NCBI GenBank assembly: GCA_964478085.1
Contig: CAYZGY010000001.1
Coordinates: 1-49,835 of the forward strand
Length of the DNA stretch: 49,835 nucleotides
Source: an uncultured Planctomycetia bacterium
GTDB lineage: Bacteria; Planctomycetota; UBA8108
Direction of reading: 5' to 3'
The notes under the pieces were generated by a model, which was not told the DNA's origin, did no database searches, and saw nothing but the letters and a program-made list of their open reading frames with translations. Made by a program: the position numbers and the translations under genes. This document shows, one piece after another, positions 7,920 through 43,448 of this stretch. The stretch's first letter is position 1. Each line of letters opens with the position of its first letter.

Positions 7920-10900
7920 TCAGATGCTGCACGTGTCCGCCGGACACTCCGCGAAAGCGTCGCCCGTCGGATCCTGACCGCAGCTGAGCGGCCCGGGGTC
8001 CGCCGGTCGCGTACCCCCTTGGAAGAGATAGACGAGTAGAACCACCGCGTCGGACGTGTTGAGCTCGCCGTCGTCGTTGACGTCGGCGGCGTCGTCGCAG
8101 ATCAGCGCGCCGAGGTCTCCGAAGACGCTGAGGAGGAGCGTCACGGCGTCGGAGACGTCGACCGTACCGTCCGAGCTCGCATCTCCGCGCACGAATCCTC
8201 CACGACAACCGAGGCCACCGGGATAGAGAATCGGATCGAAGCTGAGATCGGAGCTGTCGAGCGTCGCGTTGTGGACGCTGATCGCGAGGACGTTACGACC
8301 CTCGACGAGGAAGTCCTTCGGAATCAGAACGGTATCGGTGACACTCTCCCCCCCTGTAGTCGCGGCGAGGTTCGGAAGGTCGTCGCCGTCGGGAACGTTG
8401 AGTCTTGCGACCTCGAAGTCGTTGACGAAGATGATGACTCCGTCGTCGTATCGAACCTCGAGCGCGAGGACGTCGATCGTGTCGAGATCAGCGATCTCGA
8501 ACTCCTTGCGACAGAAGACTGCGAGGTAGTTGTTCCGCATGCCGTCGAGCACGGTCGCGTCGTCGTCGTCTCCGTAGCCGATTCCCGTCTCGCCCGAGGC
8601 CCACGAAGAATCGTCGAAGCCCGGGTCGGCCCAGTCGATCGGCAATGCCTGGTCGCCCGTCAGGTAGCGCCACTCCTCTCCTGCGCGAATGAGCGTGTGG
8701 TCGGCGACGAGCTCCGGGAGAAGCGAAAGATCGCTCGAGCCGAGCGTCCTGTTGTGTACCTGAATCGCGAGCACGTTCCTTCCGCTGACGAGAAGTGACG
8801 GATCGATGTCGTAGACCTCGAATTCACCCGCCTCGCGCTGCGCGTCGGCGAGAGCGTTCCACGCGAGCGGCGTGCCCGGCGGCGCGAGCGAAGCCGAACG
8901 CGCGACCTCCTCGCCGTTGAGGTACGCCGCGAAACCGTCGTCGTAGTCGATACGAAGACGAAGCGCCGTCGCGACCGTGCCGATCTCGAACTCCTTGCGC
9001 ACGAAGACGCTCGCGTACGAGTCGGGCATGTCGTCGAGAATCGTCAGGTCGTCGTCGTCGCCGTAACCGAAGCCGGACGGCCCGACCTCCCAGCCGTTCT
9101 CGGCCGAAGGCTCGAAGCCTGGCCGATTCCACGCGGCGGGAGGTGCCGTCGTGCCTCGGAAGAAGTCCCAGTCCTCTCCTACGACGATGACCGGATCGTC
9201 GAGAAGAGGCGCGAGCTCGATGACGAGCTTCGGTGGCGTCTCCCCCTCTGACGAGTAGAAGTCCCAACCGTTGCCCCCGCTCGGCAAGAGCGCCCAACCG
9301 TGATGCGTGCACGGCGCCGCGGACCATGCCGCGACGCTCGCGGTGACATCGATCGAGATCGTTCCCCCTCCGAGCGCGTCGACGGTCGCGTCGGGATCAC
9401 CGAGTGTGTCGACACCGATCTCGACTCCACCAGCTCCGAAGCTCGACCAGTTCCCGAGCGGATCCCACTGACGTCGCATGCGGTAGACCTCCGCACCCGT
9501 GCCCGCGTCGGTCGAGCTGAACTCGAGCCGCGCCGAGCGAATCGGCGAGCCCGGAAAGACCTGGTCCTCGCCCTCTCCGAAGACATCGTTGAATTTGATC
9601 AGCACCTGCGTCGCGTTGCCGCTTCCCGACGGATCGTCGCCGTCGACGAAGAGCTCCGGCGACTCGTTCTGATTCGATCCGGGCGACGCCTCGACGAGCA
9701 TCGTGTCGACGGTTCCCGTGTAGCCATTGAGGCCCTGCTGGAAGATCCTCGTCGGCCGACCGCCGGAGACCTCGACGTCGAGGAAGACCTGGTCCATGCG
9801 CAAGAGGTCGCCGTCGTCGGCGATCAGTCCGAAGAGATAGCGTCCCGATGCGGTGAAAGACACGATCGTCGAGAGCGACGTCGGCTCGGCGAGCTCGGCT
9901 TCGGCCGGTCCGTGAAGGAACACCCACTCGGTCGACACCGAACCCCCTGCGGGCAGACCGTCGTCGCTGACCGTCCCCGTCAACACGCCGCGATTCCCAG
10001 CGAGCGGAAGCTGCCGGTCGGAGCCCGCGTTCGGCTGCGGGCGCTCATTCGCGTCGTCGGGCGGAGGATACGTGTATCGCACACAGGTGCGATCCGTGCT
10101 GTTGATGCTCCGACAGCAGTTGCCCCACATGAGCGCGCCGCTGTCCTGCGCGTGCCCGAAGCCCATCCCGTGACCGAGCTCGTGGCCGAGGAGGATGCGG
10201 TAGCCACCACTGCCGAGGCAACCGACACCGTTGTTCATCACGACGAACCAATTGTGCATCGTGATCCAGCTCGTACCGTCGAATGAATGCGTTCCGCCAC
10301 CTGCCCCACCACCGAAAGCGAGCGTGCCGCCGCAGCCTTGAAGGTCGGCGATGTCGGAGCAAGGATCGTCGAAGAGGATGAAGTTCGCCTGCCCGCCGCA
10401 ACCCGGCGCCACGGCACGCGAACCGCCGAAGACCATGTTGCAACCCGTCGGAGTCACGTTCATCCAAAGATCGAGCGCTTCCTGAACGAAGTGATAACCC
10501 TCGAAGGTGATCGACTGATCACCAGGGGAGATGCCGTAGATCGTCAGTCGACGTCCTCCCCGCAGATTCGGCTGACGCCAATTCTGACCGCCCGAGTTGA
10601 AGTAGAAGCAGCCGCCGGGAACGGCCGCGCCTCCGCCTTCGGCATCTTCTTCAGAGTGATCGTCATGGTCGTGACCGAGATCGATCTCGAACTCTTCATC
10701 GACGACGCTCGCCGAGTCCCACTCGACGCGCCCGCGCAAAACCAGAGCGAGGTGATCGAGAAGCGCATCGGTTCGGTAGGCGCCGATCGGCTCGGGCACG
10801 ATTCCGTCAGGTCGCTCGACGGCGTGCGAATCACCCGCCTCGGGAACCGGAACGAGCCGCCGCTCGAGCGCGCCACCGGGCGTTGTCGTCGTGACTTCAC

Positions 10901-11348
10901 GAAGCAGCCCGTACGAAAACATCGAAGTGATCCACGATGCCTCGTTCGAACGCCTCTTCGAAAGACAGACGAAGTAGCTTTCGCCCTCGACGAAGCGCGG
11001 CATTCCGGGAATCTTCCACTCGAGTCCGTCCACGGTTCCGCCCGGCACCTGGATCTCGATGAGATCACCGACCTGCTGACCGCCGTCGAGTGAACGCAGA
11101 ACGGTGAACTCCGTGTGCGTGTACGGCATGCCGGAGACGGCATCGGCGCCCCCTGGAGCGACGACTCGGCTGCGACCCGCACGCGCGAACACCACACCCT
11201 CGCTCGCCTCGGCGAGCTCGCCGAGACTGCGCGGAGGGATCTGCGACATCGCCCGCAGATCGAGCCCGTAATAGAGCGAAAGAACGACGACGAGGGCCGT
11301 CGTGACTCGACGAAACACGCTTCGATCAGCCATTTTGAAGACTCGCAT
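7920..11348 (-). CDS. Secreted metzincin-type zinc metalloprotease with an Ig-like domain, a DNRLRE-like domain, two GYGD beta-sandwich modules and a C-terminal dockerin-like module
   Basis: - The ORF track gives 7920-11873, but the first 175 codons look like non-coding read-through.
- ATG at 11348 (or 11333) gives [29 protein letters not shown], a signal or anchor sequence.
- The zinc motif [11 protein letters not shown] lies at 10152-10184, followed by ALMW (Met-turn).
- Two modules of about 160 aa carrying GFGYGDDDD / GIGYGDDDD lie at 8691-9191 and 8226-8690.
- The tail [10 protein letters not shown]...[18 protein letters not shown] lies at 7923-8195. Confidence 0.85.
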
Positions 11349-11556
11349 TGGGCGCGCCCCGCGAGAACCCGGTTGGCGGTGGAGGACGCAGTGTCCAAAT
11401 TCCCGCATCCGAGCCGGAAACGCAAATCCTCGTTGGGCCCGCAACCCTAAACAAATCCCGCACATCTGACGCATCACCTGCTCTGGCAAAGGTCTCCGAG
11501 CTCGGATACGATCGAGACCTTCGTAACGAGCAGGCGTTCTTGCCGAAGAAGTAAGA

Positions 11557-11577
11557 GGGCTCCGGCCGCCGGAGCCC
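11557..11577 (+). promoter_or_regulatory. Perfect 9-bp-stem hairpin in the 5' leader of the PQQ-like giant gene, within the divergent intergenic region
   Basis: GGGCTCCGG-CCG-CCGGAGCCC lies 43 nt upstream of the GTG start at 11620. No upstream gene needs a terminator here, so its function is unknown. Confidence 0.3.
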
Positions 11578-11619
11578 CGATAACATCGAAGCAGCCTCGA
11601 AACAGGGTCCCGAAGGAAC

Positions 11620-14600
11620 GTGACGAAACGCGGACGCAACCTCCTGTGGACTATCGCTTTAGCTAGCTTTCTCTGTGTCGGATTCGCGTCGCTGTGGCAG
11701 CGTCCGAACGCCGCCGCGCAGGAAGGCGCGATCCAGACCGGCGACTGGCCGATGTGGCGCGGCAACGCGCAGCGCGGAGGTACGACTCCGGGCGAGCTCC
11801 CGAACGAGCTCCACCTGAGCTGGATTCTCGACCTGCCGGAGCCGATCCCCGCCTGGCCATCGACGCAGGACAAGCTCCAATTCGATCGCCTCTACGAGCC
11901 CGTCGTCCTCGGCAAGCGCCTGTTCGTTCCGTCGATGATCAGCGACAAGGTCACGGCGTACGACACGGAGACCTCGAAGGAGCTCTGGAGCTTCTACACC
12001 GACGGCCCCGTGCGCTTCGCGTGCGTCGCTTGGAAGGACAAGGTCTACTTCACGTCCGACGACGGATACCTCTACGCCGTCAACGCCGCCGACGGCTCCC
12101 TCCACTGGAAGTTCCGTGGTGGCCCGAACGACCGAAAGGTCATCGGCAACTACCGCCTCGTCAACATGTGGCCCGCGCGCGGCGGTCCCGTCATCTACGA
12201 CGACAAGATCTACTTCGGCGCGAGCATCTGGCCCTTCATGGGCATCTTCGTTCACGCGCTCGACGCCGAGACCGGCAAAGTCATCTGGACGAACTCGGGC
12301 ACGGGCTCGAACTGGATCACGCAACAGCACAACAGCCCCGCGTTCGCGGGAATCGCTCCGCAGGGATACCTCGCGGCGACCGAAGACTACCTCGTCTTAG
12401 CGGGCGGACGAACGATGCCGGCGGTCTACGAAAGAAAGACCGGCGCGTTCAAGCACTACAACGTCGCGAGCCGCAAGATGGGCTCGAAGGGCGGCGGTGG
12501 CTTCGACGTCGTCGTCGGCGAGAACTTCTACATCAACCGCGGCGCGATGTACCGCATGGACAACGGCCACTTCCTTCAAAAGATGGACGCGCTGCTCATC
12601 AACGAGCACGCGATCATCTGCCACGGCGACGATGGCGTCCGCGGCTTCCGCCCGCGTTGGGAGGAAGAGATCACGAAGGATCGCAAAGGCAAGGTCACGA
12701 AGAAGGTCGTCGTCAAGAAGGCTTGGTCGACACCTCTCGACAAGAAGGTCACGAAGGTCTTCCTTCAGGCCGGTGGCAAGCTCTTCGGACTCGGCGAGAA
12801 CAAGCGTCTCGTCGGCGTCGACATCTCGAATCTCTTGACGGGTGCGAGGGTCATCTGGAGCCAGGAGATTCCGGACGAGCCCCTCAACATGATCGCTGCC
12901 GACGGCAAGCTCTTCGTCAGCACCGACCACGGCCGCATCTACTGCTTCTCGGGAAAAAAGCCGGCGACACCGGTGAAGCTTCCCGAGCCACCGCCGGCGC
13001 CGAAGGTCGTCGAGCCCGTCAAGACGGACCCTGCCGTCCTCATCACCGAGGACTCCGTCTGGAAGTTCTGGGACAAGCGCGACGCGCCCGCCGGCAACTG
13101 GTCCACCGTCGATTTCGACGACAAGGCCTGGGGCGCCGGCAAGGGCAAGATCGGTTACGGCGACGACGACGTCGTCACGAAGATCAGCTTCGGTGACAAC
13201 AAGGACAAGAAGCCGCTCGCGGCGTACTTCCGTCACGCCTTCGAGCTCGCGAAGAACGAGATCCCCGCGGACGCGAAAGACAAGAAGATCAAGATCGAGC
13301 TCTCGGTCGACGACGGCGCGATCGCCTACCTCAACGGCGCCGAGGTCGGGCGCATCCGCATGCCGAACGGCAAGGTCGACTCGAAGACGAAAGCCGCCGC
13401 CAACGCCGCGAAGGAGAGCGATTTCGACACGCTCGAAATCGACGCCGCGCTCTTCCGCGCCGGCATCAACGTGCTCGCCGTCGCCGTGCACCAGTTCAAG
13501 CCGACGTCGAGCGACCTCGCGCTCCGCGCCAAGATGCCCCGCGGCATCTTCGTCGCGCAGAAGCAGGATGCCGCCGAGAAGAAGATGCCGCCGGAACGAA
13601 AGCGCGACGAGCGCTTCGAGGACCCGCAAGACGAGTACACGAAGCTCGCCGCAAGCCTCCTGGCCGATTCGAGCGCCAAGGTCGGCTACGTGTTCGTCTT
13701 CGGTCTCGGATCGGGTCGTCTCGTCGAAGAGCTCGCCGCGCAGACGACGCTCCACGTCATCGGTTTCGACAAGGACGCGAAGAAGGTCGCCGAGCTTCGC
13801 CGACGCTTCGACTCACTCGGAGTTTACGGCCACCGCATCTCTATCTCGCATTTCGATCCGCTGACGGTCGGCTTGCCACAGTTCGCTGCCGAGCTCATCG
13901 CCTTCGGTGACGACAAGATTCTCGAGGGGCGTGAGAGGGAAGCGGTCGACGTCGTCTTCCGTTCACTCCGTCCTTACACGGGCGCGGCTTTCCTCTCGGC
14001 ATCGTCGAAGTCTGCACGCGCCTTCCTCGACGCAGCGGGCACCGCCAAGCTCGACGGTGGCGTCGCCGAGAAGGTCGGAGACTTCGTCGCGCTTCGACGT
14101 CCCGAGCCGCCGAAGGGATCGGGCGAGTGGACGCACCAGTACGGCACGGTCGGCAACTCGGTGTCCTCGACCGACACTCAAGTCAAAGCACCGCTCGGGC
14201 TGCTCTGGTTCGGCGGACCGTCCAACGCGAACGTCTTGCCCCGACACGGTCACGGGCCGACGCCGCAGGTCGCTCACGGGCGTCTCTTCATCGAGGGGCG
14301 CCACATGCTCCGCGCGCTCGACATCTACACGGGCAACATGCTCTGGGAGCGCACTCTCAAGGATCTCGGCAAGGACTACGACTACACGAGTCACGAGCCC
14401 GGCGCGAACGCGCTCGGAAGCAACTACGTCTCGCTCGCCGACGCGGTCTACGTCGTCCACGAGAATAAGTGCCTCAAGCTCGACCCGCAGACAGGCGTCA
14501 CGACCGCCACCTTCGAGCTGCCGAAGCACGAAGACCCTGCGAAGAGCCCCAAGTGGGGATACGTCGGCGTGTACAAAGACCTGCTCCTCGCCGGCGTGAT

Positions 14601-17102: not shown

Positions 17103-17138
17103 GCGTGGGTACACGGTCGAAATGCGCCCACGCTTTTT
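17103..17138 (+). terminator. Rho-independent terminator candidate after the PQQ-like giant gene
   Basis: Stem GCGTGGG / CCCACGC with a 17-nt loop, followed by TTTTTCTT. Confidence 0.45.
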
Positions 17139-17232
17139 CTTGCTCGGACCCGAACGAGAACCTAGACTGCCGGCAGTCGAGTCGTTCGCGCTTGGATCCA
17201 CACCAACCTCAACCACGCGGAGTCAGGGCAGC

Positions 17233-18337: not shown

Positions 18338-18790
18338 CTACTTCGCGCGCAGGTCGTAGCACGCAATTCCGTCGTTCAACCGCACGATGAGTCGCCCGTC
18401 GAAAATCGCCGGAGTGGCGCACTGGAGCGGTCCGTGCTTCTCGACGCGGTCCTTCCAGATCTTCTGGGCCTTCTTCGCCCCACCTTCCTCCTTCTCGACC
18501 TTGTCGAGATCGAGACGTGCGCGCCAGGCGTCCTCGCGATCGGCCAGCCCGCCCTCGCCGATCTTGACGTCGACGAGTGAGGTGAACTTCTTCGAGTCCG
18601 CCACAAAGGCGAGAAGCCCCTCGCAGCCGTAGAAGACCTTGTCGTCCGCGGCGAGAAGCGACGAGAACTGCGGGTTCTTGAGACGCAGTGTCGTACGCCA
18701 GGTCTCCTTGCCCGTCTCGAGGCTGACACAGGCGAGTCGGCGCTCCCCTTGCACGAAGACGTGGCCGTCGACGACGAGCGATCTCGACGG
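18338..18790 (-). pseudogene. 3' fragment of a PQQ/BamB-like beta-propeller gene, with the N-terminal part missing
   Basis: SLVVDGHVFVQGERRLACVSLETGKETWRTTL...DDKVFYGCEGLLAFV...ATPAIFDGRLIVRLNDGIACYDL are propeller-blade motifs. The upstream part of the track ORF (to 18937) is merely antisense to the dockerin fragment. There is no signal peptide. Confidence 0.6.
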
Positions 18791-19079
18791 CGACGGCCGA
18801 GCCGAGCCACCTGACGCGATTCGAATCCTCCGCCATCTCTTCCAAGGTGGCCCGATCATCACCTGCGAGGACGCGGCCGACGCGGCCGACGCAGACGACG
18901 CAGACGACGCAGACGACGACGGCGTCGTCGCGATCAACGACGCGATCTACATCCTCACGTACCTCTTTCTCGGGGGCTCTGAAATCCCCGGACCAACCGG
19001 CGAGTGCGGCGTCGACTGGACGCGCGATGCGATCGAGTGCGAGTTTCCGATCGACTGCGGCGGATTCGATCCGCGATAG
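18780..19079 (+). pseudogene. Orphan 3' fragment encoding only a dockerin-like double EF-hand module with a Cys tail
   Basis: The fragment reads DLDGDGRAEPPDAIRILRHLFQGGPIITCEDAADA(DADDADDADDD)GVVAINDAIYILTYLFLGGSEIPGPTGECGVDWTRDAIECEFPIDCGG-stop. Upstream of 18780 the same frame is antisense to the propeller fragment. Confidence 0.65.
18888..18920 (+). repeat. 9-bp tandem repeat (GACGCAGAC x3 plus GACGAC) expanding the second Ca-binding loop of the orphan dockerin fragment
   Basis: Read directly. It encodes DADDADDADDD where the intact copies have D-x-N/D-D/G-D/N-G. Confidence 0.85.
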
Positions 19080-19089: not shown

Positions 19090-22000
19090 TCAGGTACAAG
19101 GGGCGTAAGACTCGCAACTGAGCGCGTCCGCCGTTTCGTCGAAGTCGCAGCTAGCGAACGGATCGCGCGGCGGCTCTCCGCCCAGAAAGAGGAAGTTCAG
19201 AAGGGTCACCGAGTCGCTCAAGTTGACTCGTCCGTTGTCATCCGTATCGGCCGTGCGAAGACAGCCAGGAGCTTCCGCACCGAGAAAGAGGTGCTGGAGT
19301 GTCGCGATGGCGTCGGTGAGATCTCTGCGCCCGTCCGCGTTGACATCGCCACGAAGGAACTCGCGTTTCCCCGCATCGAAGTACGCCTCGACCGTCGCCG
19401 TGCCGACGACCTCACCTCGAGCGTCGAGGCCCTCGATCAAGTAGTCGCGGTCACCCGGATCGAGCTCGATGCTCGCTCGCCACTGCCCGACGCTGCGCCA
19501 TTCGAGCAGGATCGGCTCACCGTCCACGTGGAGTCGTTCCATGGCGAGCGGTCCGTTGCCAGAGAGAAGGAGCTCGCTCCGAGTCGTCACCACGGGAGAT
19601 CGGGGTGAGATCACTCGAAACTCAGGATTTCCGATCGCCGTACGAAGGTAGCTGGCACGCGTCGCGATGTACCCTTTGACCCTCTGCGAGGGGCTGGCGA
19701 GGCGAACCGCGCCGGCAGGTGTACGGCGCAAAAAATTGAAATTGCCGTCGAGAATCGGGTGCAGCACCTCCGTGCTGTAGAAGCCATCGAGGAGCGTCTC
19801 AATCTCTCGATAGAACCGACGCGTGTAGCTCGGATACGTGAGAAAGCGCCGAATCAGCGGGCGGTTCGTCAGGATAATCGGCGCGCGGGGATTGAGAGTG
19901 TCCGGCCACAGGTCGCAACAAGTCCCCATCGCGACGTCGTGATCCCACGGAATGAACATCCACTTGCCACCGGGTGGCCGGTAGAGGTAGACGTTCTTTC
20001 CCGTCTGTCCACCCACGGCGTCCCAATCAGCCGCCGTTCGAAGCGCCGCCGACATATGAATCCACTGGTCGACGTCGGCCAGCTCCTCGAACCTCGATTC
20101 GAACTCGCTGATCGGGGTCTGGTTCGGATCGAGCACGCGGAGCAGCTCGCGGAGCCCCGAGAAATCATCTTGGCGCTCTCGCGATCTCGGCTTGAACTGA
20201 AACCGCAACGTCTCCTTGTCCTCGAAGAACCTCCACGGGCCCGCCTGCGTGACAGCTCCACCGCTCGAGTTCGTCTCGTAGTGGGAGTCGACCTTGTAGA
20301 GCTCTCCCTCCGCTGTTCCGAAAGAGCTCTCGAGATACCGGTCGTCGACGACGAGAACGTCCTCGTAGAGACCGAAGCGGTTTCCACGAACGATGACCTC
20401 GATGTGCTGTCGCTGTCCGAAGGGGATTCTCCCCGTCTTCTGCATGAGCAGATGCATCGTGCGATCGACTTGAATGGTCGGATCCGGCAACGCATCGTCG
20501 AGAACGATGCGAACGGCACCGTGGAACGAGCTCTCGTCACGCAGACGAATTCTGAACGCCTGGCGCTCACCGGGAATGACTCGAACGAACGTGCTACCCT
20601 TATAGCGGAGGTCGGCGAGATGAAAGATCCTCTCGTCCCGATAGACGAGGGATGCAGGGAGCGGGTGGTTCGAGTGAGGGGAGCGACGCCGGAGCGTCGC
20701 GTAGTCGCCCGATCGCATGACGATGCGATAGCCGGGCAGCGGGCCCGAGTCGATTCCGTCGTCGTAGGTGAAGACGTACGAGTCGTGCCCCTTCTGTGCA
20801 GGTGACATTCGAGAGCGACCTCCGCCGTCGGTCGCGACGATACGGAACTCCCCCACCTGCGCCGCTCGTGCGCGTCCGGGGATCTCCACCGTATAGATCG
20901 AGTCGCCCGCGACCGAGTCCGGAGCGACGCCGTCGTCGGCCATGTTCCGACTCTCGAAATCCGCCTCTCCGTCGAGGCGGAAGAGCGTGCTGACCGACGA
21001 GAGCCCGTCGGAGTCACGAACTCGCGCCGTGAGAATCACCGATTCATCCGGAGCCGGAAGAGCGGGGAACTGCTCAACATTCGAGATGACGGGGCCTGTG
21101 TTTTCCGACGCACGACTGTTGGCTCTCCCCGGCGTGCCGCCGGCCCCAGGCACGGAGAGACGCGTCGTTCGTGCGAGGAAGTGACCCCAGTTGCGCACCA
21201 TGAGAAGATCCGATCCTCGGAGCCAGCGCACCTTGAATCGCACGCTGTAGACTTGTCCGCCGAGCATCGGACGAAGGGTACGCTGCTCGACGTGATTGAG
21301 CTGGGAGTCTCCGCGACGCGACGCGACGAGATGAAGGGCGTTGCTCCCATCGGCGCCAGTACCCTCTTCGACGAAGCTCTCGACGTGCGTTCCTTCCGCA
21401 CGCCAAACGCCAAGATCATCACCAGCTTCGAAATTCCCGTTCGCGATGAGACTGTTCCCACGTGAATCCTCGACCTCGAGATCGTCGATCAGGGCCTCCC
21501 CGGCTCCGAAGAGCCAAAGGTGAAACTCGTTCGCGGTCCCGCTGTTCTGACGAATCTCGTACTCGACCGTCCTCCACTCCGACTCCGCCGAGTGATCACT
21601 CTCGCGCCAAGCCGCTCCGGCGGAGTTGTCTTGCGCCGAGTCGATGAGCTCGAGCGACGGTCCGTCACCGTCGGCCCAAGGGCTCCAGCTGCCTTCGTCG
21701 AAGTATCGAACTTCGTCGACGGGAAGATCGCCGGCATCGATCAGGCGAAGCATCTCCCCCTGATTCGAGAGGATACCCTCCCAGGGTCCGAGGACGCCTT
21801 CGAGCCCGTAAACCTCCGCGACGTGTAGCGGATCGCGCGCGACGACGAGGAATTCCCCCGCGGCAAGCACGGTCGGTCGCGGGAATTCGAAGCGGATTCC
21901 GTTCGAGAATCGGTAGCCTCCGAGATCGACGTCCGTATCTCCGGTGTTCACGAGCTCGACGAACTCTTCGGCGTCGTCCTCCGAGTACGGATTGTAGTGA

Positions 22001-25000: not shown

Positions 25001-25113
25001 GACGGAGGCTCGCGCTATCGGGCGCGACCTGTGATCAGAGTTGGTCTGGGGTCATGTGGTCGTGTCGGTCCTCCTTAGGGGCAAGCGGTGTAGCGGTCAC
25101 AACCGAGACGCTC

Positions 25114-28100
25114 TTAGCCCTCGAGGTCCTTTCCACAGTCGGGGAACGGGGCCGGAGGCGCCGCGCCGCCGCGGAAGAGGTAGCCGAGGCCGGCGATTGC
25201 GTCGCCGAGGTCGAGCGTGTTGTCACCGTTCGTGTCGGCCGAGACGCGGCAAGGCGGCGCCTGGTGGCCGAGGAAGAGGTGGTTGAGAGTGAAGATCGAA
25301 TCGCCGAGGTCGAAGCCTCCGTCTCCGTTCGCGTCACCGCGAATGAAGTCGGTTCCTTCGTCGCCTTCGGGGGAGCGGAGCTCGACCGCGGTCGAGGCGA
25401 CCGGCTCGGGGTCTCCGTCACCGTTGTTGTCGATTCGCAGGATAATGTCGTAGAAGACGAACGGCTCGTGATCGAGGACGAGGGCTTCGACCTCGACGTT
25501 GTTGTCGTTCGACCCCGGCGGGAGCTTCACCGTGCGCACGACCGGCTCTCCCGGGGGCAGACCGTCGAGCGAGATGTTGTTTTTTCCGAAGGGCGGCATG
25601 GCCTCGATCACGACGTCGACGACGAGCGCCTTGTCCGTGTGGTTCTCGAGCATGAAGCCCGGACGGATCGGCGTGCCGATCTCCTGCTGGAGGACGAGGT
25701 CGACCGGGATCGCCTTGATCTCGTTCGAGTGGATCACCGAACCGATCGAGCCGTACCCGTCGCCCGTCGACATTTCCGAGACGACGTGGCAGCCGGTCTC
25801 GAGGTTGTAGGCGTTGACCTCGAAGCAGCTCGCACCCTCTTCGTGGATGTTGCTGCAGTCGACGCTGACGTACGCGATACCGGTGTCACCGGGGTTGACC
25901 GTCATCGTGCCGTTCGAGGGCGAGAAGCCGACCGGGCCGGGGAGATCACAGTAGCCGGCGGGCAGCGAGTTGATATCCCACGCGTAGTTCTGCGGGGTGC
26001 CCGTCGGGTTGTGGATCTGAACCGCGATCGTCGCCTTGCCGTTGCAGCAGGGAGCTTCCCAAGTCGTCGAGACGATACCCGTGTCGTCGACACAGGGGCA
26101 GCAGAGCTCGAGCTCGAGAGTCATCCAATCGATGCCGGTGTCGTCCTGGATCATGACGCCGAGGTCGCCGTCCTGGAGCGAAGCGAGCACGCTCGTCGTG
26201 CCCCACTTGTCCGCGGGCAGGTTACCGAGATCGAGGCAGATCTCCGCGTCGCTGTGGGCGCCCCAGGCACCGACGATCGACGCGATACGTGCACCCCAAA
26301 CCGGCGTGGCGCCGTCGAAGAGCTGGATCGTGTCGTTGTGAGCGAGCGAGCTCTGGCTGGCGCGGATTCGCATGCAGAGTTGCGCCTTGACGACGCAGCA
26401 GTCGTCCTCCCAGCACTCGCGGAAGGTGTGACCGACCGCGCGGTCGCCGGGGAGCACGTCGAGCTGCGTGAGAGCGCCACCGCTGATCGTCTGCATGTGC
26501 GCGAGGAGGGCCGGGTCCGGATCGAGGAACTCGGGCGTCGAGGTGTCGAAGTCGTCGGGCTCTCCGACCTCGCAACGCTCCTGCCGCATCTCGCCTTCGC
26601 AACCCTTCTTGTTACCGAAGTCGACACCGCCGACCGAGACGTTGCCGTACGTCGAGACCGGCTGCGTCACCGAGCCGGGAGCCGTCTGCGTCCAACCAGG
26701 CGACTGAACCTCGTTGACGACGTAGTTGGCCGGAGCGAGACCGCTGAAGCTGTAGTTGCCGCTCGCGTCGGTCGAGGTCGTCGCGACGACCGTACCGCTC
26801 GAGTCGCGCAGCTCGATCGCCCAACCGGGGATCCCGTTCTCGCTGCCGTCCTTGATACCATTGCCGTTGACGTCCTCGAACTTCTGTCCCGTGATCGAGG
26901 TAAAGCAGCAGACTTCCGTCTCGAGGATCATGAAGTCGACACCCGTGTCGTCCTGAATGAAGACGTCGAGGTCGCCGTCCTGGAGAAGCGCGAGCACGTT
27001 GGTGATACCAGCCGTACCGCTCGGCGGCAGGTTGGCGAGATCGAGTGTCAGCACGGCCGAGTCACCCGGGTTCCAGGAACCGCCCGCGAGCGCCGCAATC
27101 TTGCCACTCCACGAGAAGGAACCGTCGTCACCGAACGAGATCGTGTCGTTGTAGCAGAGAGGATCCTGACCGGCGCGCAGCGAAATGATCAGGCGAGCCG
27201 CGACGACGACACAGCCCTTCTCCCAGCAGCGCTTGAACGTGTGACCGAAGCAACGGTTCGAGGTCAGGTCGTCGAAGGCGAGTCGCGGACCGTTGCTGCA
27301 GTTCTGCATGACCGCGAGGAGCGCGGGTGAAGGCTGAGCGTTCGGCTCTTCGTTCGTCGTGTCGAACTCGTCCTCGAGACCGACGAGGCAAGCCGAGTGG
27401 ATCGGCTCTTCGCAGCGCTCGACGTTGCCGAAGTCAGCGATGTAGACGTTCTCGCTCTCGAGGCTGCCGCAGACGTCGATCGTGTGCGTCACCGTCGTCG
27501 GGTAGGTCTGCACCCAACCGGCCTGCTGAATCTCCGCGACCGTGTAGACGCCGGGCTCGACCTCGATGCAGTAGCGACCTTCGGCGTCCGTGACGACGCG
27601 GTAAGCCTGCGTCGGGCCGACGAGGTCGATCTCCCAACCGGGGAGACCCGGCTCGTCAGAATCCTGGACGCCGTCACCGTCGAGGTCGTTGAACTTGACG
27701 CCGCAGATCGTGCCGGGGAGGCAGGGGCAGCAGACGTCGAGCTCGAGCCGCGCGAAGTCGACGCTCGAGTCGTCCTGAATGTAAACGCTGAGCGAACCGT
27801 CCTGGACGTGCGAGAGGACGTTGGTGACACCGGCGCCACTCGCGGGCAGGTTGGCGAGGTCGAGGACGAAGGTCTCGTCGGACCCCACTCCCCAGGTGCT
27901 CGAGGTCGAGAGATTGGCGAGCGACTGGTACCAGACGGCGCCCGAGCCTTCGATGAATCCGATTCCGTCGTTTCCGCTGAGACAACCGTGACCGCGAACG
28001 CGGATCGTCAGGCGACCACCGACGACGCGGCAGGAAGGATCGAGCGGAACGGAAAGCGTGTGACCGAAGCACCGGTTGCAGACGTCCGGCGTGTCGAACG

Positions 28101-36396: not shown

Positions 36397-36401
36397 CGAT
36401 C

Positions 36402-38792: not shown

Positions 38793-38871
38793 GGCTGCAG
38801 GAAGATCTCGATAGGGATCTCGACGGATTCTGGACACGACCGATCGTCGCGTCATTATACACGTCCTACCG

Positions 38872-39600
38872 ATGGGCCCGCGAGCCCGAGAGAGAGGAGT
38901 ACGCCCGATCTTCGCCGAGACCGACATCTACGCCATTCCGGGCTTTGCCGAGCCCTTCAGCTGCTTCACGCACCTCCTCGGAGCCGGAATCTTTCTCGTT
39001 CTCGGCTTCTTTCTCGTGCGTCGAGGACGCGGGAGTCGAGCGCGACGTTTCTCGCTCTTCGTCTTCGCCTTCGCGTGCGTCCATCAGCTCGCGTTGAGTG
39101 GCGTCTATCACCTGCTTTCGACCGGCGGCGCAGGTCGGGCAGTCCTGCAGAGACTCGACCACGCGGCGATCTTCGTCCTCATCGCGGGAACTTTCACCGC
39201 AGCTCACACGATTCTGTTCACGGGAATCGCACGTTGGGGAATGCTCCTCTTGATCTGGGCGGCAGCGATCACGGGACTGACGCTGAAGACGATCTTCTTC
39301 GACAGCGTCCCCGAGGCGCTCGGCCTTTCGCTCTACGTCGGGCTCGGCTGGGTCGGGCTCGGCTCCGCGGTGATGCTGTGGCGCCGCTACGGCTTCACGT
39401 TCATCAAGCCGATGCTCTGGGGAGCGGTCTTCTACACGGCGGGCGGCGTGCTCGAGTTTCTACGCGAGCCGACCCTGATTCCTGGAGTCATCGGGCCGCA
39501 CGAGCTTTTCCACATCGCCGTGCTCGCCGGCCTCTCCTTTCACTGGCGCTTCACACACTCGTTCGCGGACGGCAGCTTGCCTCCGACGGCCTCTCACTGA
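38872..39600 (+). CDS. Hemolysin III / PAQR-family membrane protein
   Basis: 242-aa ORF with seven predicted hydrophobic segments. Family motifs are FTHLLGAG, LQRLDHAAIFVLIAGTFT and GPHELFHIAVLAGLSFHW. Its 3' end overlaps the convergent gene by 7 bp. Confidence 0.88.
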   Translation: MGPRARERGVRPIFAETDIYAIPGFAEPFSCFTHLLGAGIFLVLGFFLVRRGRGSRARRFSLFVFAFACVHQLALSGVYHLLSTGGAGRAVLQRLDHAAIFVLIAGTFTAAHTILFTGIARWGMLLLIWAAAITGLTLKTIFFDSVPEALGLSLYVGLGWVGLGSAVMLWRRYGFTFIKPMLWGAVFYTAGGVLEFLREPTLIPGVIGPHELFHIAVLAGLSFHWRFTHSFADGSLPPTASH

Positions 39601-42600
39601 GGAGCCGCACCGTGACAAGGACGGAAGAAGCCGCACTCGAGACCGTTGTCGAGCGTCGTCGGATCGACACCACAATCGGCGAGACCGAGTCGCGCGCTCC
39701 AATTCGTCGCGGACGGTGACGGATCAGGCGGCGGAGCCCCTTGCTGGAAGAGGTAGACGAGGAGTGACACGCCGTCGGCGATATCGAGCTTCTCGTCATC
39801 GTTCGCGTCCGCCGAATCCCGGCAGAGCGGCGCCGGGCCACCGAGGAACTGGTAGTTAAGGAGCGAGATGGGATCGGAGATGTCGACACCTCCATCGCCG
39901 TTCGAGTCGCCACGCACGAAGAGTCCGCTGCCACCGTCGGTCAGAAAGAAGCCCTCATCGGAGATCACGGAAAGGGGGCCGAGCCTGGCGACCACTCTCC
40001 AGCGAAAGACCGTCGCCGGCTCGAGACCGAGCGGCGGAGTGAAGCTTCGACCCGTGATGTTCTTCGCGGTCGGATTCTCGGGCATCTCCTCGCCGTCCTT
40101 GAAAAGGAAGACATCGAACACGGCGTCGCCGAACTCGTACTCCCAGTGGAGAGAGACGTCGAGATCGACCACTCGGTCGAGTCGCGGCTCCGGTCGTCGA
40201 GGAATCGGCTTCGGTAGCTCGAAGCCCGAACGGATGATCTGGTTGTTCGCCGGGCTCGTCTGCAAGCTCTGCTCGTCGTCGAACTGAATCGTCGCGCGGT
40301 TGACGATACCCGTTCCCTCGGCGAGGCCGGCGAACGGCTGCACCGAGAATTTGACCCACGCCTCGCCCTCGGGCGGAAGCGCGTTCGGCGGAAGAAAGCC
40401 CGCGTCATCGAACTGCGCGGCGTCGACGACCTTGCCCGTCGCGTCGAGCGTCGAGAACACCCACTCGATCGTTCGCGTCGAGAAGTCGACGGTCGACTCG
40501 ACGGCGAGCGTCAGGCCAAGATCCTCGTCGAGCGGGTACGTCGCGAATCCGCCGTAGCCGTCTGGACAGAGGGGCGCAGGACCGCTCCCGGAGAACGGAA
40601 TCTCCGACTTCGGGGTCAGATTCATCTGAATGTGGTTGCCGACGCCGACCGCTCCGAACTTGACCGTCGTCGGGTCGAGCTGAGGCGGCAGAACGTCGGT
40701 GATCGTCGCGACCTGAACAGCCGTGCCGATATCCTGATCACCGGGGTTTCCGATGACCTGACCTGCGGGCGGGCAGTTCGGCTTGTCGGGGTCGCAGTTC
40801 TCAAACTGAATCTCGTACGCGATGGGCTCGACGGGCGGCACCCAGAAACCGAGATCTCCCTCGCCTTGGCCCTTCGGTCCGTTCTTCTCGTTCGGATCGA
40901 TGGGGCGAATCAGCGTCACCTGACGCCCCGCCGCGATCGAGTAGAGCTCGTCAGGCGCAGCGATCGTGCCGTCGAGATCGATCGGCCTCGGATTCGGCGT
41001 GCAGTCGAGCGACTGAGGCTCGTTTCTCGGCGCCGCGAGCACGTCGAGAAACGAGCGAGCGTCGCCGGCTTCGACGAAGAGGGGATCGACCTCCACTGAG
41101 AAGTGCTCGAGATCGATCGTGTACTCCGCCTCTCCCGCTAGACCATCGACGAAGAAGAAGCCGCGCTCGTTCGTCGTCGCGCAGCCCGCGACACCATCCG
41201 AATCGATCGCGAAGACCGTCTCGCCGACGATCGGGCTGCCGTCTTCCTGTCGAAGCGTTCCGAAGACTCCGGCCGTAGACTGACCGTCGGCGAGCAGGAG
41301 AAGAAGCTCGAGCGCGTCGACCACCGAGGCCGGATCCCCGCCGCGGAGAGCGACCGAATCGGCGAACTCGGCCAGCTTGCTCGGGTAGTTTCTCCAAAGG
41401 CTTCCGAAGAAGAAGCTCGAGAGCGGAGTCTCTTCGTCGCGCTCGGCGCGAAGAACCTGTCGCACTCGCTCCCAGTCGAAGTTCGCGAGGCCGGACGGAG
41501 GAGCGAGAGCGCCGTCACAGTCGTCATCGACGTTGTCCCAGCAGATCTCGTCGCGTCGATTCGGGCTCAGCACGTCGACGTGAAAGTCCACCGTCGAATT
41601 CTCTTCGTGATCCGTCTGAACCTCGAAGTACACCCGGACCTCGCCAGACTCGTGCGGGCCGACGAAACCAGGAACCCCGTGCGGATCCGCGGCAAGAAAC
41701 TCGAGAACGTTGTCTCCGAACTCGGCCTGGCTTTCCAGACGAAGCTTCACTCCGGGATCTGTTCGCAAGCGAAGGAGCGAGGAGCGGATCTCCTGGTCGC
41801 CCGGATTCTCCCACCGAACGACGAGGCTGCGCACGCGATTCATGCGCACGCGGTCGTTCACGTCGAGTCGAACGTCGAGGCGTGCGCGCTCGGAATCTGT
41901 GTCGGCGAAGACCTGGAACGCGTTCTTGATGAACACGCCGGCCGCGCCGGGCTTCTTCGCGGTCAGCGAGTACAAGGCCTTGCCCGCACCGGCCATGTGA
42001 AACTCGAGAAGCGCCTCTCCCGAGGAGATCACCCGCGACTCGACAGCGTCGGCGACGAAGCGAGCAGGACCACCCTCCTCCTGAAGCGCGAAGATCGTAT
42101 CGTCCGAGAAGCCGCCGCCGAAGACTCGCGTGTGGATGCAGCCCGTCTCCGACTGCCCGACGGAGTCGACACTCATGCCGGACAGCGTGATCGAGGGGAA
42201 CGTCAACTCGACGAGAATCTCGCTCTTGGCGGCCTTAATGAAGTTCGTCACCGGACGGACGTAGTAAGTCCCCGCACGCGTGAACGGAATGACGAGACGC
42301 TGTGCCGACGTTCCGCGCAGGTCAGCCGCGTAGTCGTAGATGCCCGGCTCAGGGTAAGCTCCGAATCGAACGTAAACCGCGTTCTCGTCATCGGGCAGAG
42401 TGCCCTGGATGTCGAGCACGGCTACCTGTCCCGTCGTCGCAGTGAAGCCGAGCAGATCTTTCGTTTGACGATCCGGCGGTCCCGGGCAGATGCGGACGCT
42501 CCTCGGATCGTCAGGATGAAGCGACTGGATCACGATGGGGCAAACGTCGATGCTCGTAGCCGAGACGGACGGTTTCGCGGGAGTGCTGTCGTCGGTGACG

Positions 42601-43448
42601 AGATTGTCGACCGGCACGACTCCTCCGGGACCGAGCAGGCCGTCGACGAACTCGAGCTCGCAGATCACGCACGGCTCTCCTTCCGAGGGGACGGGCGACT
42701 CGAGCTCGAGGACGATCAGCTCATGCGGATCGGGCAGCCCTGAGCCCAGGCCCGTCAGCAAGGTGAAATCGAAAACGACGGCGGCGACGTGACCCGCGGC
42801 CACTCCTGATTCGTCCGTTCCGACATCGGCAAACTTGAACGCAGCCGTTTCCGAGACGGTGCCGGTGAAATCCGATCCCGTGATCGAGCAGGCGCTCTGC
42901 GGAGTCGGAAGGACGCTCAGTGAGAACCCCTGCACCTCACTGGGATCAGGGACCTCGAGTGTCACGGTCTGCAAGAATCGAGCGGTCCCTCCGGGCGTTC
43001 CGGAGAATCGATCGACCCCGTCGAACGCGAGCCGATAGCGCGCGTCCTCGTCGCAGCATGGCGGCGGCGTGTCGGGGCACAGCATCGGGTCGACCGAGTC
43101 GCAACTCAGAGGCTGCACACCCGGGTCGTGGCAGACGCACGTGGTCGTGAAACCGCCGACCCCGACCGTGATCGCGTGAAGAAGAGTCGTCGCGTCAGCC
43201 AGACCGATGTCGCCATCCTCGTTGACGTCCGCCGCAGCTTCACATCCTGGAGGATCACCGCCGAGGAACAGAAACCGCAGCAGGAAGATGGCGTCAGCGA
43301 CTTGCACGTGACCGTCGTCGTTGACGTCTCCGAGACGGAACCAAGTGGCCGTCGGATCGGCGGGATCGGCCGCCACCGAGGCGGACGGTGTGAACGCCAC
43401 CACCAGAACACTGAGCGCGGTGAACAGAATGGAGTGAGGCTTACTCAT
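39594..43448 (-). CDS. Giant secreted surface protein with dockerin-like modules at both termini, beta-sandwich/Ig-like repeats, a carboxypeptidase-regulatory-like segment and an fn3-like domain
   Basis: - ATG at 43448 is preceded by GAGGAA and gives MSKPHSILFTALSVLVVAFTPSASVAA.
- The N-terminal module FRLGDVNDDGHVQVADAIFLLRFLFLGGDPPGCEAAADVNEDGDIGLADATTLL lies at about 43166-43340.
- The C-terminal module FVRGDSNGDGGVDISD...DCGVDPTTLDNGLECGFFRPC lies at 39594-39920. Confidence 0.88.
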   Translation of the reverse strand: MSKPHSILFTALSVLVVAFTPSASVAADPADPTATWFRLGDVNDDGHVQVADAIFLLRFLFLGGDPPGCEAAADVNEDGDIGLADATTLLHAITVGVGGFTTTCVCHDPGVQPLSCDSVDPMLCPDTPPPCCDEDARYRLAFDGVDRFSGTPGGTARFLQTVTLEVPDPSEVQGFSLSVLPTPQSACSITGSDFTGTVSETAAFKFADVGTDESGVAAGHVAAVVFDFTLLTGLGSGLPDPHELIVLELESPVPSEGEPCVICELEFVDGLLGPGGVVPVDNLVTDDSTPAKPSVSATSIDVCPIVIQSLHPDDPRSVRICPGPPDRQTKDLLGFTATTGQVAVLDIQGTLPDDENAVYVRFGAYPEPGIYDYAADLRGTSAQRLVIPFTRAGTYYVRPVTNFIKAAKSEILVELTFPSITLSGMSVDSVGQSETGCIHTRVFGGGFSDDTIFALQEEGGPARFVADAVESRVISSGEALLEFHMAGAGKALYSLTAKKPGAAGVFIKNAFQVFADTDSERARLDVRLDVNDRVRMNRVRSLVVRWENPGDQEIRSSLLRLRTDPGVKLRLESQAEFGDNVLEFLAADPHGVPGFVGPHESGEVRVYFEVQTDHEENSTVDFHVDVLSPNRRDEICWDNVDDDCDGALAPPSGLANFDWERVRQVLRAERDEETPLSSFFFGSLWRNYPSKLAEFADSVALRGGDPASVVDALELLLLLADGQSTAGVFGTLRQEDGSPIVGETVFAIDSDGVAGCATTNERGFFFVDGLAGEAEYTIDLEHFSVEVDPLFVEAGDARSFLDVLAAPRNEPQSLDCTPNPRPIDLDGTIAAPDELYSIAAGRQVTLIRPIDPNEKNGPKGQGEGDLGFWVPPVEPIAYEIQFENCDPDKPNCPPAGQVIGNPGDQDIGTAVQVATITDVLPPQLDPTTVKFGAVGVGNHIQMNLTPKSEIPFSGSGPAPLCPDGYGGFATYPLDEDLGLTLAVESTVDFSTRTIEWVFSTLDATGKVVDAAQFDDAGFLPPNALPPEGEAWVKFSVQPFAGLAEGTGIVNRATIQFDDEQSLQTSPANNQIIRSGFELPKPIPRRPEPRLDRVVDLDVSLHWEYEFGDAVFDVFLFKDGEEMPENPTAKNITGRSFTPPLGLEPATVFRWRVVARLGPLSVISDEGFFLTDGGSGLFVRGDSNGDGGVDISDPISLLNYQFLGGPAPLCRDSADANDDEKLDIADGVSLLVYLFQQGAPPPDPSPSATNWSARLGLADCGVDPTTLDNGLECGFFRPCHGAAPQ

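What the first reader, a model, noticed from the sequence alone, without database searches (positions are those of the whole stretch)
7923..43340. A shared F-x-R-G-D dockerin-like tail with conserved cysteines marks four giant secreted proteins and one orphan fragment
Six modules in total fit one pattern: F-(V/L/I)-RGD-x-(N/S)-x-DG-x2-D-x2-D-x5-L-x2-(L/Q/V)F-x-G...C...AD-x-(N/D)-x-(D/N)-x7-D-x3-L-x3-(LF/IT)...P-x2-P...C(G/D)-x-D-x(5-8)-(E/S)C-x(5-6)-C.

The modules lie at:
- 7923-8195 (-)
- 18780-19079 (+)
- 19090-19359 (-)
- 25114-25347 (-; short tail with only the first tail Cys)
- 39594-39920 (-)
- an N-terminal copy at 43166-43340 (-)

Five of the six sit at the extreme C-terminus. The catalytic or adhesive parts they are attached to are otherwise unrelated: a metzincin, a CotH protein, a Cys-repeat protein and an Ig-repeat protein.

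Dockerin-like modules without obvious cohesin partners are known from planctomycetes. However, the invariant terminal position and the paired cysteines suggest a common anchoring, sorting or assembly tag. No cohesin-like partner is evident in this window.
Basis: partly seen in the sequence, partly recalled or inferred. Interest (0 to 1): 0.65.

Follow-up and report, generated by a model that had tools for sequence, protein, structure and literature searches.

The report
Disulfide-stapled dockerins of a planctomycete
The six repeated tails are real type I dockerin modules, the calcium-dependent "plugs" known from cellulosomes. They belong to a very common Planctomycetota subtype with a cysteine-stapled extension, and one of the carrier proteins also holds the matching cohesin "socket".

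Summary
All six modules exist at the stated coordinates. A profile built only from non-window sequences finds exactly these six (domain E 1e-16 to 3e-37).

- **Identity.** The core is a type I dockerin, by profile matches to solved dockerins and by a predicted fold matching dockerin structures. The last ~28 residues (PPxPFPxCGxDPTxDxLxCx5C) match no solved structure, Pfam or NCBIfam model.
- **Size of the family.** It is very large: 27,301 clusters at E<=1e-10. In a genome sample, 101 of 108 tail-bearing modules lie in Planctomycetota MAGs.
- **Cysteines.** Their co-occurrence implies two intradomain disulfides, C1-C3 and C2-C4.
- **Position.** Tail-bearing modules are usually C-terminal. They also occur directly after signal peptides and internally, alternating with cohesin domains. 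This argues against a sorting signal and for an assembly plug.
  - The window does encode a cohesin, at 42540-43049 (-), inside the two-dockerin protein.
  - The "short tail" at 25114 comes from a private G->T nonsense change; the rest of the tail follows in frame.
  - The N-terminal copy also has a divergent Cys tail.

Verdict: a cohesin-dockerin ("planctosome"-like) surface assembly system. The kind is known and the stapled tail appears to be an undescribed variant. Binding itself is untested.

The parts
7923..8195 (-). C-terminal dockerin with a 4-Cys tail on the metzincin/PKD/DNRLRE protein. The ORF is 7920-11873; the likely start is 11333 (MADRSVF..., signal-peptide-like).
18780..19079 (+). 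Orphan dockerin with a 4-Cys tail in ORF 18639-19079. It lacks the F-x-R-G start and a signal peptide, and has a 9-aa D/A-rich insertion in the inter-repeat linker. It abuts head-to-head a PQQ beta-propeller fragment on the minus strand, so it is a probable gene remnant.
19090..19359 (-). C-terminal dockerin with the canonical tail on the three-LTD + CotH protein (19090-22962). Cys spacing is C1-38-C2-11-C3-6-C4, with one residue after the last Cys.
25075..25347 (-). C-terminal dockerin of the SdrD_B-repeat protein (start 29505). An in-frame TAA at 25114-25116 cuts the tail after C2. The remaining tail (ERLGCDRYTACP) and the ancestral stop lie at 25075-25113.
39594..39920 (-). C-terminal dockerin with a 4-Cys tail on the adaptor-like protein 39594-43448. 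The tail has a ~13-aa insertion before C2.
43077..43340 (-). N-terminal dockerin of the same protein, directly after the signal peptide. It is the only copy above the Pfam Dockerin_1 gathering score (40.5 bits). It carries a divergent Cys tail, CVCHDPGVQPLSCDSVDPMLC.
42540..43049 (-). Cohesin domain (aa 134-303) of the same protein. It is the candidate dockerin receptor encoded in the window.

Best explanation
The six modules are type I dockerins of a Planctomycetota-specific subtype.

**Anatomy**
- Each has two duplicated calcium-binding F-hand segments (DxNxDGxxDxxDA...L..LF.GG).
- A ~28-residue proline-rich extension follows the second segment.
- The extension folds back and is stapled by disulfides. 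C1, in the inter-repeat linker, pairs with C3 (L-x-C). In most C-terminal copies C2 (C-G-x-D-P-T) pairs with C4, usually the penultimate residue.

**Proposed mechanism**
- The carriers are Sec-exported enzymes and adhesins: a metzincin, an LTD-CotH protein and an SdrD-like repeat protein.
- Outside the cytoplasm, the oxidised and calcium-loaded dockerins plug into cohesin domains of scaffold or adaptor proteins.
- This gathers the cargoes into a cell-surface or extracellular complex, a non-cellulosomal 'planctosome'.
- The window's protein at 39594-43448 is such an adaptor: signal peptide, dockerin, cohesin, other domains, dockerin.

**Shown versus inferred**
- Shown: dockerin homology and fold, family size and taxonomy, position statistics, Cys co-occurrence, cohesins fused to these dockerins elsewhere, and a cohesin in the window.
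- Inferred: the disulfide connectivity, calcium dependence, actual cohesin binding and which pairs bind, and surface location.
For: **Core is a dockerin**
- The family profile matches solved dockerins at E 7.5e-7 to 1e-5 over profile positions 6-67.
- The AF2 model has pLDDT 87-97 in the core. Its best Foldseek hits are dockerins such as 4uyp_B, 4fl4_G and 2ccl_B, with TMt 0.7-0.84.
- The two repeats within each module are 37-56% identical.

**Family**
- 45,956 / 27,301 / 1,145 representative clusters at E<=1e-3 / 1e-10 / 1e-30.
- In a GTDB genome sample, 101 of 108 tail-bearing modules are in Planctomycetota MAGs. All 17 dockerins from Bacteroidales, Clostridia, Zixibacteriota and Ignavibacteria found by the same DNA pattern lack the tail.

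**Position**
- 83 of 106 tail-bearing modules end within 6 aa of the stop codon.
- Many others lie right after signal peptides or internally.

**Cysteines (566 modules)**
- C1 and C3 are both present in 381 modules; C3 occurs without C1 in only 2.
- C2 and C4 are both present in 162 modules; C4 occurs without C2 in only 4.
- The dominant patterns are CCCC and CxC-.
- The AF2 model has a beta-bridge between C33 and C82, which are C1 and C3.
- The spacing 38/11/6 occurs in 89 modules, and the last Cys is penultimate in 73 of 118.

**Cohesins**
- 141 of 189 inter-module segments form one homologous cluster.
- Its profile hits solved cohesins (3l8q E 3.5e-10).
- 17 of 22 members hit Pfam Cohesin.
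- Window cohesin.

**Cargo elsewhere**
- Other Planctomycetota genomes carry Peptidase_C25, LTD+CotH, P_proprotein, HYR/LamG and lectins on this module.
- This matches the published planctosome hypothesis (PMC6461901).
Against: - No binding was tested and no multimer modelling was possible.
- The tail is modelled at only pLDDT 60-76.
- The window cohesin model is moderate (pLDDT 66) and gets no Pfam Cohesin hit at E<=0.01.
- Only one cohesin was found for six dockerins in the window. None lies in the 7 kb beyond its right end. The rest of the genome could not be scanned.
- Four of the five C-terminal copies scored 16.8-18.4 bits or not at all against Pfam Dockerin_1, below its gathering score of 22.9. 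The orphan fragment was not scanned against Pfam.
- Many non-cellulosomal dockerins have never been shown to bind cohesins.
Confidence: 0.7

Rival explanations
1. The dockerin-like fold is used without cohesins. The module would be a calcium- and disulfide-stabilised terminal domain that binds something else, such as polysaccharide or an envelope component, or that simply stabilises large secreted proteins. The co-occurring cohesins would serve a separate purpose.
For: - Only one cohesin was found against six dockerins in the window.
- In the genome sample, cohesins appear in only 8 ORFs against more than 100 dockerin-bearing ORFs.
- Word-index searches with cohesin queries returned nothing.
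- From general knowledge, many non-cellulosomal dockerins have no demonstrated partner.
Against: - These exact dockerins are repeatedly fused with cohesins in regular Doc-Coh-Doc(-Coh-Doc) proteins.
- The window's two-dockerin protein carries a cohesin.
- Few scaffold cohesins against many dockerin-bearing enzymes is the normal ratio in cellulosomes (established knowledge).
Confidence: 0.2
2. The Cys-bearing C-terminal tail is a sorting or anchoring signal. A dedicated export or attachment machinery would recognise it, as with PEP-CTERM/exosortase, LPXTG/sortase or the T9SS C-terminal domain.
For: - There is a strong C-terminal bias: 83 of 106 modules end within 6 aa of the stop.
- The last Cys is the penultimate residue in 73 of 118 modules.
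- The 4-Cys form is enriched in terminal copies: 102 of 235, against 14 of 190 internal copies.
Against: - Tail-bearing modules, including 4-Cys ones, also occur N-terminally (29 of 141) and internally.
- The tail has no hydrophobic helix or basic end (read directly).
- No NCBIfam sorting-domain model matched.
- Cys counts are even and co-vary in pairs, as expected for intradomain disulfides.
- Classical dockerins are also mostly C-terminal without being sorting signals (established knowledge).
Confidence: 0.07
3. The similarity is chance or low-complexity (D/G/A-rich) sequence in a GC-rich genome and is not a real domain.
For: - The genome is 62-65% GC.
- Pfam scores for most copies are below threshold.
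Against: - An independent profile hits only these six places, with E 1e-16 to 3e-37.
- There are thousands of homologues with conserved register.
- The AF2 model confidently predicts a dockerin fold.
Confidence: 0.01

Closest known systems
Type I dockerin modules of clostridial and ruminococcal cellulosomes (Pfam PF00404; e.g. PDB 1OHZ/2CCL Xyn10B, 2MTE Cel48S, 4UYP ScaB dockerin)
   Same: - Two duplicated ~22-27-aa F-hand segments with 12-residue DxNxDGxxxxxD calcium loops, each followed by a helix.
- A three-helix fold.
- Mostly C-terminal on otherwise unrelated secreted enzymes.
- Cohesins exist in the same lineage and even in the same proteins.
   Different: - A conserved F-x-R-G-D start.
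- A Cys in the inter-repeat linker.
- A ~28-aa proline-rich extension (PPxPFPxCGxDPTxDxLxCx5C) with 1-2 inferred disulfides, absent from every solved dockerin matched and from the Bacteroidales, Clostridia and Zixibacteriota dockerins sampled.
- The cargo is peptidases, CotH kinases, adhesin-like repeats and lectins rather than glycoside hydrolases.
- The host is an aerobic marine planctomycete rather than an anaerobic Firmicute.
'Planctosome' hypothesis for freshwater Planctomycetes (Andrei et al. 2019, ISME J, PMC6461901)
   Same: - Non-cellulosomal cohesin/dockerin modules in Planctomycetes.
- They are combined with lamin-tail-domain proteins, metallopeptidases, HYR and proprotein-convertase P-domains.
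- An adaptor protein with signal peptide, dockerin, other domains and cohesin.
- The window and related genomes show the same component list.
   Different: - That model is itself purely bioinformatic and concerns one freshwater family (Nemodlikiaceae).
- In the passages read, it does not describe the Cys-stapled tail, the size of the family or the alternating Doc-Coh-Doc proteins.
- Here the LTD protein carries a dockerin and CotH rather than a cohesin.
Non-cellulosomal cohesin- and dockerin-like modules across the three domains of life (Peer et al. 2009; cited as ref. 52 in PMC6461901, paper not held)
   Same: Dockerin-like modules on diverse non-cellulolytic proteins, frequently without obvious local cohesins. 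This is from my own knowledge of that survey.
   Different: I could not read the paper, so I cannot say whether the Planctomycetota Cys-tail subtype was noted there.
C-terminal protein-sorting domains (PEP-CTERM/exosortase, LPXTG/sortase, T9SS CTD)
   Same: Found at the extreme C-terminus of many unrelated large secreted proteins within one genome.
   Different: - No transmembrane helix, basic tail or beta-sandwich CTD.
- No model hit.
- The same module occurs N-terminally and internally.

Membership tests
Type I dockerin (PF00404) | Two tandem duplicated segments, each a 12-residue EF-hand-like calcium loop (D-x-N/D-x-D-G-x5-D) followed by an alpha-helix | tested here: met
   - Alignments and column frequencies show D13, N15, D17, G18, D24 and D46, N48, D50, G51, D57 at 76-99% (G18 lowest) except N48 at 65% (D 31%).
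- The two repeats are 37-56% identical within each window module.
- The model has helices at 14-26 and 47-59.
Type I dockerin (PF00404) | Significant sequence similarity to known dockerins | tested here: met
   - The family profile matches PDB dockerins at E 7.5e-7 to 1e-5.
- With Pfam Dockerin_1, only the N-terminal copy exceeds the gathering score (40.5 against 22.9 bits). Three C-terminal copies score 16.8-18.4 bits and one does not hit.
- Relatives in the database are precomputed as PF00404 or named 'dockerin type I'.
Type I dockerin (PF00404) | Dockerin three-helix fold | tested here: met
   The AF2 model has pLDDT 84 overall and 87-97 in the core. Foldseek finds 4uyp_B, 4fl4_G, 4dh2_D and 2ccl_B with TMt 0.70-0.84 and rmsd 1.3-1.8.
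Type I dockerin (PF00404) | Calcium-dependent binding to a cohesin module | not testable with these tools
   No complex modelling or experiment was available. Indirect support comes from cohesins fused to these dockerins and a cohesin in the window.
Cohesin (PF00963), for window 42540-43049 (-) | Homology to cohesin domains | tested here: met
   - hhalign of the window sequence plus two orthologues against a cohesin profile gives probability 96.2%, E 2.7e-9 over 139 columns.
- That cohesin profile is itself validated against PDB cohesins.
- Run unfiltered, that profile hits only this ORF in the window (E 5e-4).
- jackhmmer started from the window segment recruits 68 database sequences.
Cohesin (PF00963), for window 42540-43049 (-) | Match to the Pfam Cohesin HMM at its gathering score | tested here: inconclusive
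   There was no PF00963 hit at E<=0.01 for the whole protein. Close relatives of the fused-cohesin family score both around and above the threshold of 24.1 bits.
Cohesin (PF00963), for window 42540-43049 (-) | Nine-stranded beta-sandwich (jelly-roll) fold | tested here: met
   - The AF2 model is all-beta with ten predicted strands, pLDDT 66 and pTM 0.62.
- Nearly all of the top ~30 Foldseek PDB hits are cohesins, for example 5lxv_A at E 6e-7 and 4dh2_C at TMq 0.64.
- Confidence is only moderate.
C-terminal sorting signals (PEP-CTERM, LPXTG, GlyGly-CTERM, T9SS CTD) | Signature motif, then a hydrophobic helix and basic tail (or an ~80-aa beta-sandwich CTD), recognised by curated models | tested here: not met
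   The tails end ...C-x(1-3) with no hydrophobic stretch. NCBIfam returned no sorting-domain model.
C-terminal sorting signals (PEP-CTERM, LPXTG, GlyGly-CTERM, T9SS CTD) | Strictly C-terminal location | tested here: not met
   Of the 566 modules classified (tail-bearing or not), 141 are N-terminal and 190 internal in the protein sample; those with Cys patterns reaching the tail include 36 four- or three-Cys N-terminal copies. In the genome sample, 15 of 106 lie more than 16 aa from the stop.
'Planctosome' (hypothetical complex, PMC6461901) | Planctomycete genome encoding cohesin and dockerin modules on an LTD protein, metallopeptidases and an adaptor with dockerin plus cohesin | tested here: met
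   - The window is planctomycetal: PSCyt1/PSCyt2/PSD1 and DUF1501.
- It encodes LTD-CotH-Doc, metzincin-Doc and a Doc-Coh-...-Doc adaptor.
- The complex itself has never been demonstrated.

The most novel reading that the evidence does not exclude
The Cys-stapled tail is more than a stabilising decoration. It would define a Planctomycetota-specific dockerin class whose extension forms part of, or gates, the cohesin interface, for example by enforcing a single binding mode or a redox-switchable one. Together with the abundant alternating Doc-Coh-Doc-Coh-Doc proteins, it would build a self-polymerising extracellular protein lattice on which peptidases, CotH kinases and adhesins are displayed. 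That would be a major, uncharacterised surface organelle of marine planctomycetes.
Probability: 0.15. Interest if true: 0.75.

Novelty: new variant of a known kind. Interest (0 to 1): 0.42.

Why it matters
Planctomycetota are abundant degraders of marine and freshwater organic matter, and how they organise their very large secreted proteins is unknown.

If these tens of thousands of stapled dockerins do bind the co-occurring cohesins, then cohesin-dockerin assembly is not a speciality of anaerobic cellulose degraders. It would be a general, aerobic, disulfide-adapted strategy for building surface enzyme and adhesin arrays.

The system is directly testable. One window supplies six dockerins and one cohesin for binding assays. 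A small oxidation-stabilised dockerin could also be useful as a protein-assembly part.

For annotation, the work shows three things:
- Most C-terminal copies fall below the Pfam threshold.
- A dedicated model covering the tail would recover them.
- The divergent cohesins are currently missed.

Tried and rejected
- **The search for related loci.** I replaced it with a degenerate DNA pattern scan of genome contigs.
- **Word-index protein searches.** The window cohesin segment and the cohesin alignment A4 returned no hit at E<=1e-3. I therefore could not census cohesins or obtain sanctioned homologues that way.
- **Peer et al. 2009.** PMC3035643 is not held.
- **Literature searches.** Searches for a described Cys-tail dockerin in Planctomycetota found nothing relevant.
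- **NCBIfam scan.** It gave no sorting-domain or dedicated family hit.
- **The look-up of encoding contigs.** The 949-aa transglutaminase ORF and the truncated 1463-aa allele are not on record.
- **Extending beyond the window's right end.** The next ~7 kb holds no further dockerin or cohesin.
- **Profile of the window-type cohesin (A5) against PDB sequences.** It gave only noise. The link to cohesins needed profile-profile and fold comparison.
- **RGD as an integrin-type motif.** Rejected. The D is the first calcium ligand of the F-hand loop and G-D is the usual dockerin start, so R-G-D is a lineage-specific version of x-G-D.
- **Alternative connectivity C1-C2 / C3-C4.** Rejected. No natural modules have only C3+C4, and the common two-Cys form is C1+C3.

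Full report
**1. Observation**

A profile built from 43 non-window homologues was run without filters on all 424 stop-to-stop ORFs of the window. It hits exactly those six places (domain E 1.3e-16 to 3.2e-37) and nothing else.

The window is planctomycetal, with PSCyt1/PSCyt2/PSD1 and DUF1501 genes. It is 99.8-99.97% identical to marine metagenome contigs from JGI 3300007513 and 3300009370 and from ENA SUTE22-1.

The carriers are:
- a metzincin ([11 protein letters not shown]) with PKD and DNRLRE domains;
- a protein with three LTD domains and CotH;
- a protein with four SdrD_B repeats;
- a protein with PPC, CarboxypepD_reg and DUF7619 domains.

By eye, all four have signal-peptide-like N-termini. 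No predictor was run.

**2. Three corrections to the description**

(a) The 'short' module at 25114 ends at an in-frame TAA. The rest of the tail (ERLGCDRYTACP, then a stop) follows in the same frame at 25075-25113. Three near-identical contigs have GAA at that codon and encode the complete four-Cys tail. The gene differs from them at 2 of 4446 nt, and the truncated product is not on record. It is therefore a private nonsense variant or an error.

(b) The N-terminal copy continues past 43166 into a divergent Cys tail that ends at 43077.

(c) The orphan (18639-19079 +) has no signal peptide. It starts exactly where an antisense PQQ-propeller fragment begins. It is identical in another assembly. 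I read both fragments as remnants of a rearrangement.

**3. What the module is**

The family profile matches solved type I dockerins over profile positions 6-67 (E 7.5e-7 to 1e-5). The AF2 model has pLDDT 84 overall and 87-97 in the core. It superposes on dockerins from cohesin-dockerin complexes with TMt 0.70-0.84. Each module holds two duplicated F-hand segments with DxNxDGxxxxxD loops. R-G-D is simply the lineage's version of the usual x-G-D start.

The last ~28 residues match no PDB chain, no Pfam model beyond Dockerin_1 and no NCBIfam model. They are modelled at pLDDT 60-76 without regular secondary structure.

**4. The family at large**

The word-index search gave 1305 hits. The best 120 are mostly fragments that end with the module, and those with a source name are labelled Planctomycetota.

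The exhaustive search gave 45,956 / 27,301 / 1,145 clusters at E<=1e-3 / 1e-10 / 1e-30. Tail-less dockerins score only ~30-45 bits against this profile, so the 1e-10 class is essentially this subtype or multi-dockerin proteins.

- 108 modules bear the tail, and 101 of them are in Planctomycetota MAGs.
- The 17 dockerins from Bacteroidales, Clostridia, Zixibacteriota and Ignavibacteria all lack the tail.
- Of 106 tail-bearing modules in ORFs that end in a stop, 83 end within 6 aa of it and 91 within 16 aa.

Cargo in other genomes includes Peptidase_C25, three LTD domains plus CotH (the same architecture as in the window), P_proprotein, HYR/LamG/Ig, lectins and DUF7619. Module-bearing genes often cluster, as they do here.

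**5. The cysteines**

Occupancy in 566 modules is C1 84%, C2 38%, C3 68% and C4 29%. Two patterns dominate, CCCC and CxC-.
- C1 and C3 co-occur in 381 modules. C3 appears without C1 in 2.
- C2 and C4 co-occur in 162 modules. C4 appears without C2 in 4.
- The AF2 model places a beta-bridge between C1 and C3.

I infer disulfides C1-C3 and C2-C4. The first ties the extension back to the inter-repeat linker. The second is mainly a feature of terminal copies: 102 of 235 C-terminal modules, against 29 of 141 N-terminal and 14 of 190 internal. There it pins the free end, and the last Cys is the penultimate residue in 73 of 118 cases. Even, co-varying Cys counts fit intradomain staples in exported proteins. 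The connectivity is inferred, not shown.

**6. Partners**

The top 150 representatives are multi-module proteins. Many have a signal peptide followed at once by a module, another module at the C-terminus, and further modules at a ~270-aa period.

Of 189 inter-module segments of 100 aa or more, 141 form one homologous cluster with a median length of 183 aa. Its profile hits solved cohesins (3l8q E 3.5e-10, 5lxv, 3ul4, 1ohz and others). Seventeen of 22 members hit Pfam Cohesin. So these dockerins are physically fused to cohesins in Doc-Coh-Doc(-Coh-Doc) proteins.

The window protein 39594-43448 has the same plan. Residues 134-303 (nt 42540-43049) follow its N-terminal dockerin. Evidence that this segment is a cohesin:
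- Together with two full-length orthologues, it matches the cohesin profile by hhalign at probability 96.2%, E 2.7e-9. With seven sequences the result is 98.7%, E 4.7e-16.
- Run unfiltered, the cohesin HMM hits only this ORF in the window.
- Its AF2 model is all-beta (pLDDT 66).
- Nearly all of the top ~30 Foldseek hits of that model are cohesins.

**7. Mechanism and rivals**

The best-supported reading is a cohesin-dockerin assembly system. Exported cargo proteins plug, through oxidised and calcium-loaded dockerins, into cohesins on adaptor or scaffold proteins. The window's two-dockerin, one-cohesin protein acts as an adaptor.

This fits the published but untested 'planctosome' idea, which combines LTD proteins, metallopeptidases and a dockerin-cohesin adaptor (PMC6461901).

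A sorting-signal reading is disfavoured for three reasons:
- The tail-bearing module also occurs N-terminally and internally.
- It has no hydrophobic or basic end.
- It matches no sorting model.

A cohesin-independent role cannot be excluded, because no binding was tested and the rest of the genome could not be scanned.

**8. Novelty**

Dockerins and cohesins in Planctomycetes are known, and some relatives are already auto-annotated as dockerins. What I could not find described is:
- the conserved disulfide-stapled extension;
- its restriction to Planctomycetota;
- the size of the family;
- the regular alternating Doc-Coh proteins.

I rate it a new variant of a known kind, of moderate interest.

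Noticed in passing
window 25114-25116 (-): A private G->T change turns a Glu codon (GAA in three 99.8% identical assemblies) into TAA. It removes the last 13 residues, including two of the four module cysteines. The gene otherwise differs at one other base in 4446.
   Followed up: yes
window 18338-19079: Two truncated gene pieces lie head-to-head. One is a PQQ_2 beta-propeller fragment on the minus strand (18338 to about 18790). The other is the orphan dockerin on the plus strand (18780-19079). Neither has a signal peptide, and the arrangement is identical in another assembly. It looks like the scar of an inversion or deletion.
   Followed up: partly
proteins P0123, P0131, P0134, P0144, P0150 etc.: A common protein class of ~650 or ~910 aa: a signal peptide, then dockerin-cohesin units repeating every ~270 aa and ending in a dockerin. 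Two distinct cohesin subtypes alternate. In principle such proteins could polymerise head-to-tail.
   Followed up: partly
L054, L090, L058, L053 (8-kb stretches of Planctomycetota MAGs): Three module-bearing genes lie side by side in each locus, so clustering of dockerin-bearing genes, as in this window, is recurrent.
   Followed up: no
L014:490-5547 (+), 7.9-Mb Planctomycetota MAG contig: It has the same architecture as window gene 19090-22962 (three LTD domains, CotH, stapled dockerin). The LTD-CotH-dockerin combination is therefore conserved across distant planctomycetes.
   Followed up: partly
window 18780-19079 (+) and 39594-39920 (-): There are lineage-specific insertions inside modules. 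One is a 9-aa D/A-rich run (encoded by GAC/GCx codon repeats) in the orphan's inter-repeat linker. The other is a ~13-aa insertion (SATNWSARLGLAD) before the second Cys of the 39594 module.
   Followed up: no
window 30441-33665 (+) and 23640-24530 (+): There is a Ser/Thr protein kinase fused to a PDZ-like region and an FGE-sulfatase domain. A second, apparently truncated kinase ORF is called as only 162 aa in other assemblies.
   Followed up: no
window 44728-49692 (+) and 205-2496 (+): A MoxR-type AAA ATPase, DUF58 and transglutaminase/DUF4129 gene cluster, and separately a VWA/YfbK protein. These are BatA-like aerotolerance-type modules unrelated to the finding.
   Followed up: no
window 11620-17046 (+): An 1808-aa secreted PQQ-propeller, LamG and malectin protein sits among the dockerin-bearing genes but has no dockerin itself. 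Downstream, at 17122-17994, is a lysine-rich 290-aa protein with no family match.
   Followed up: no
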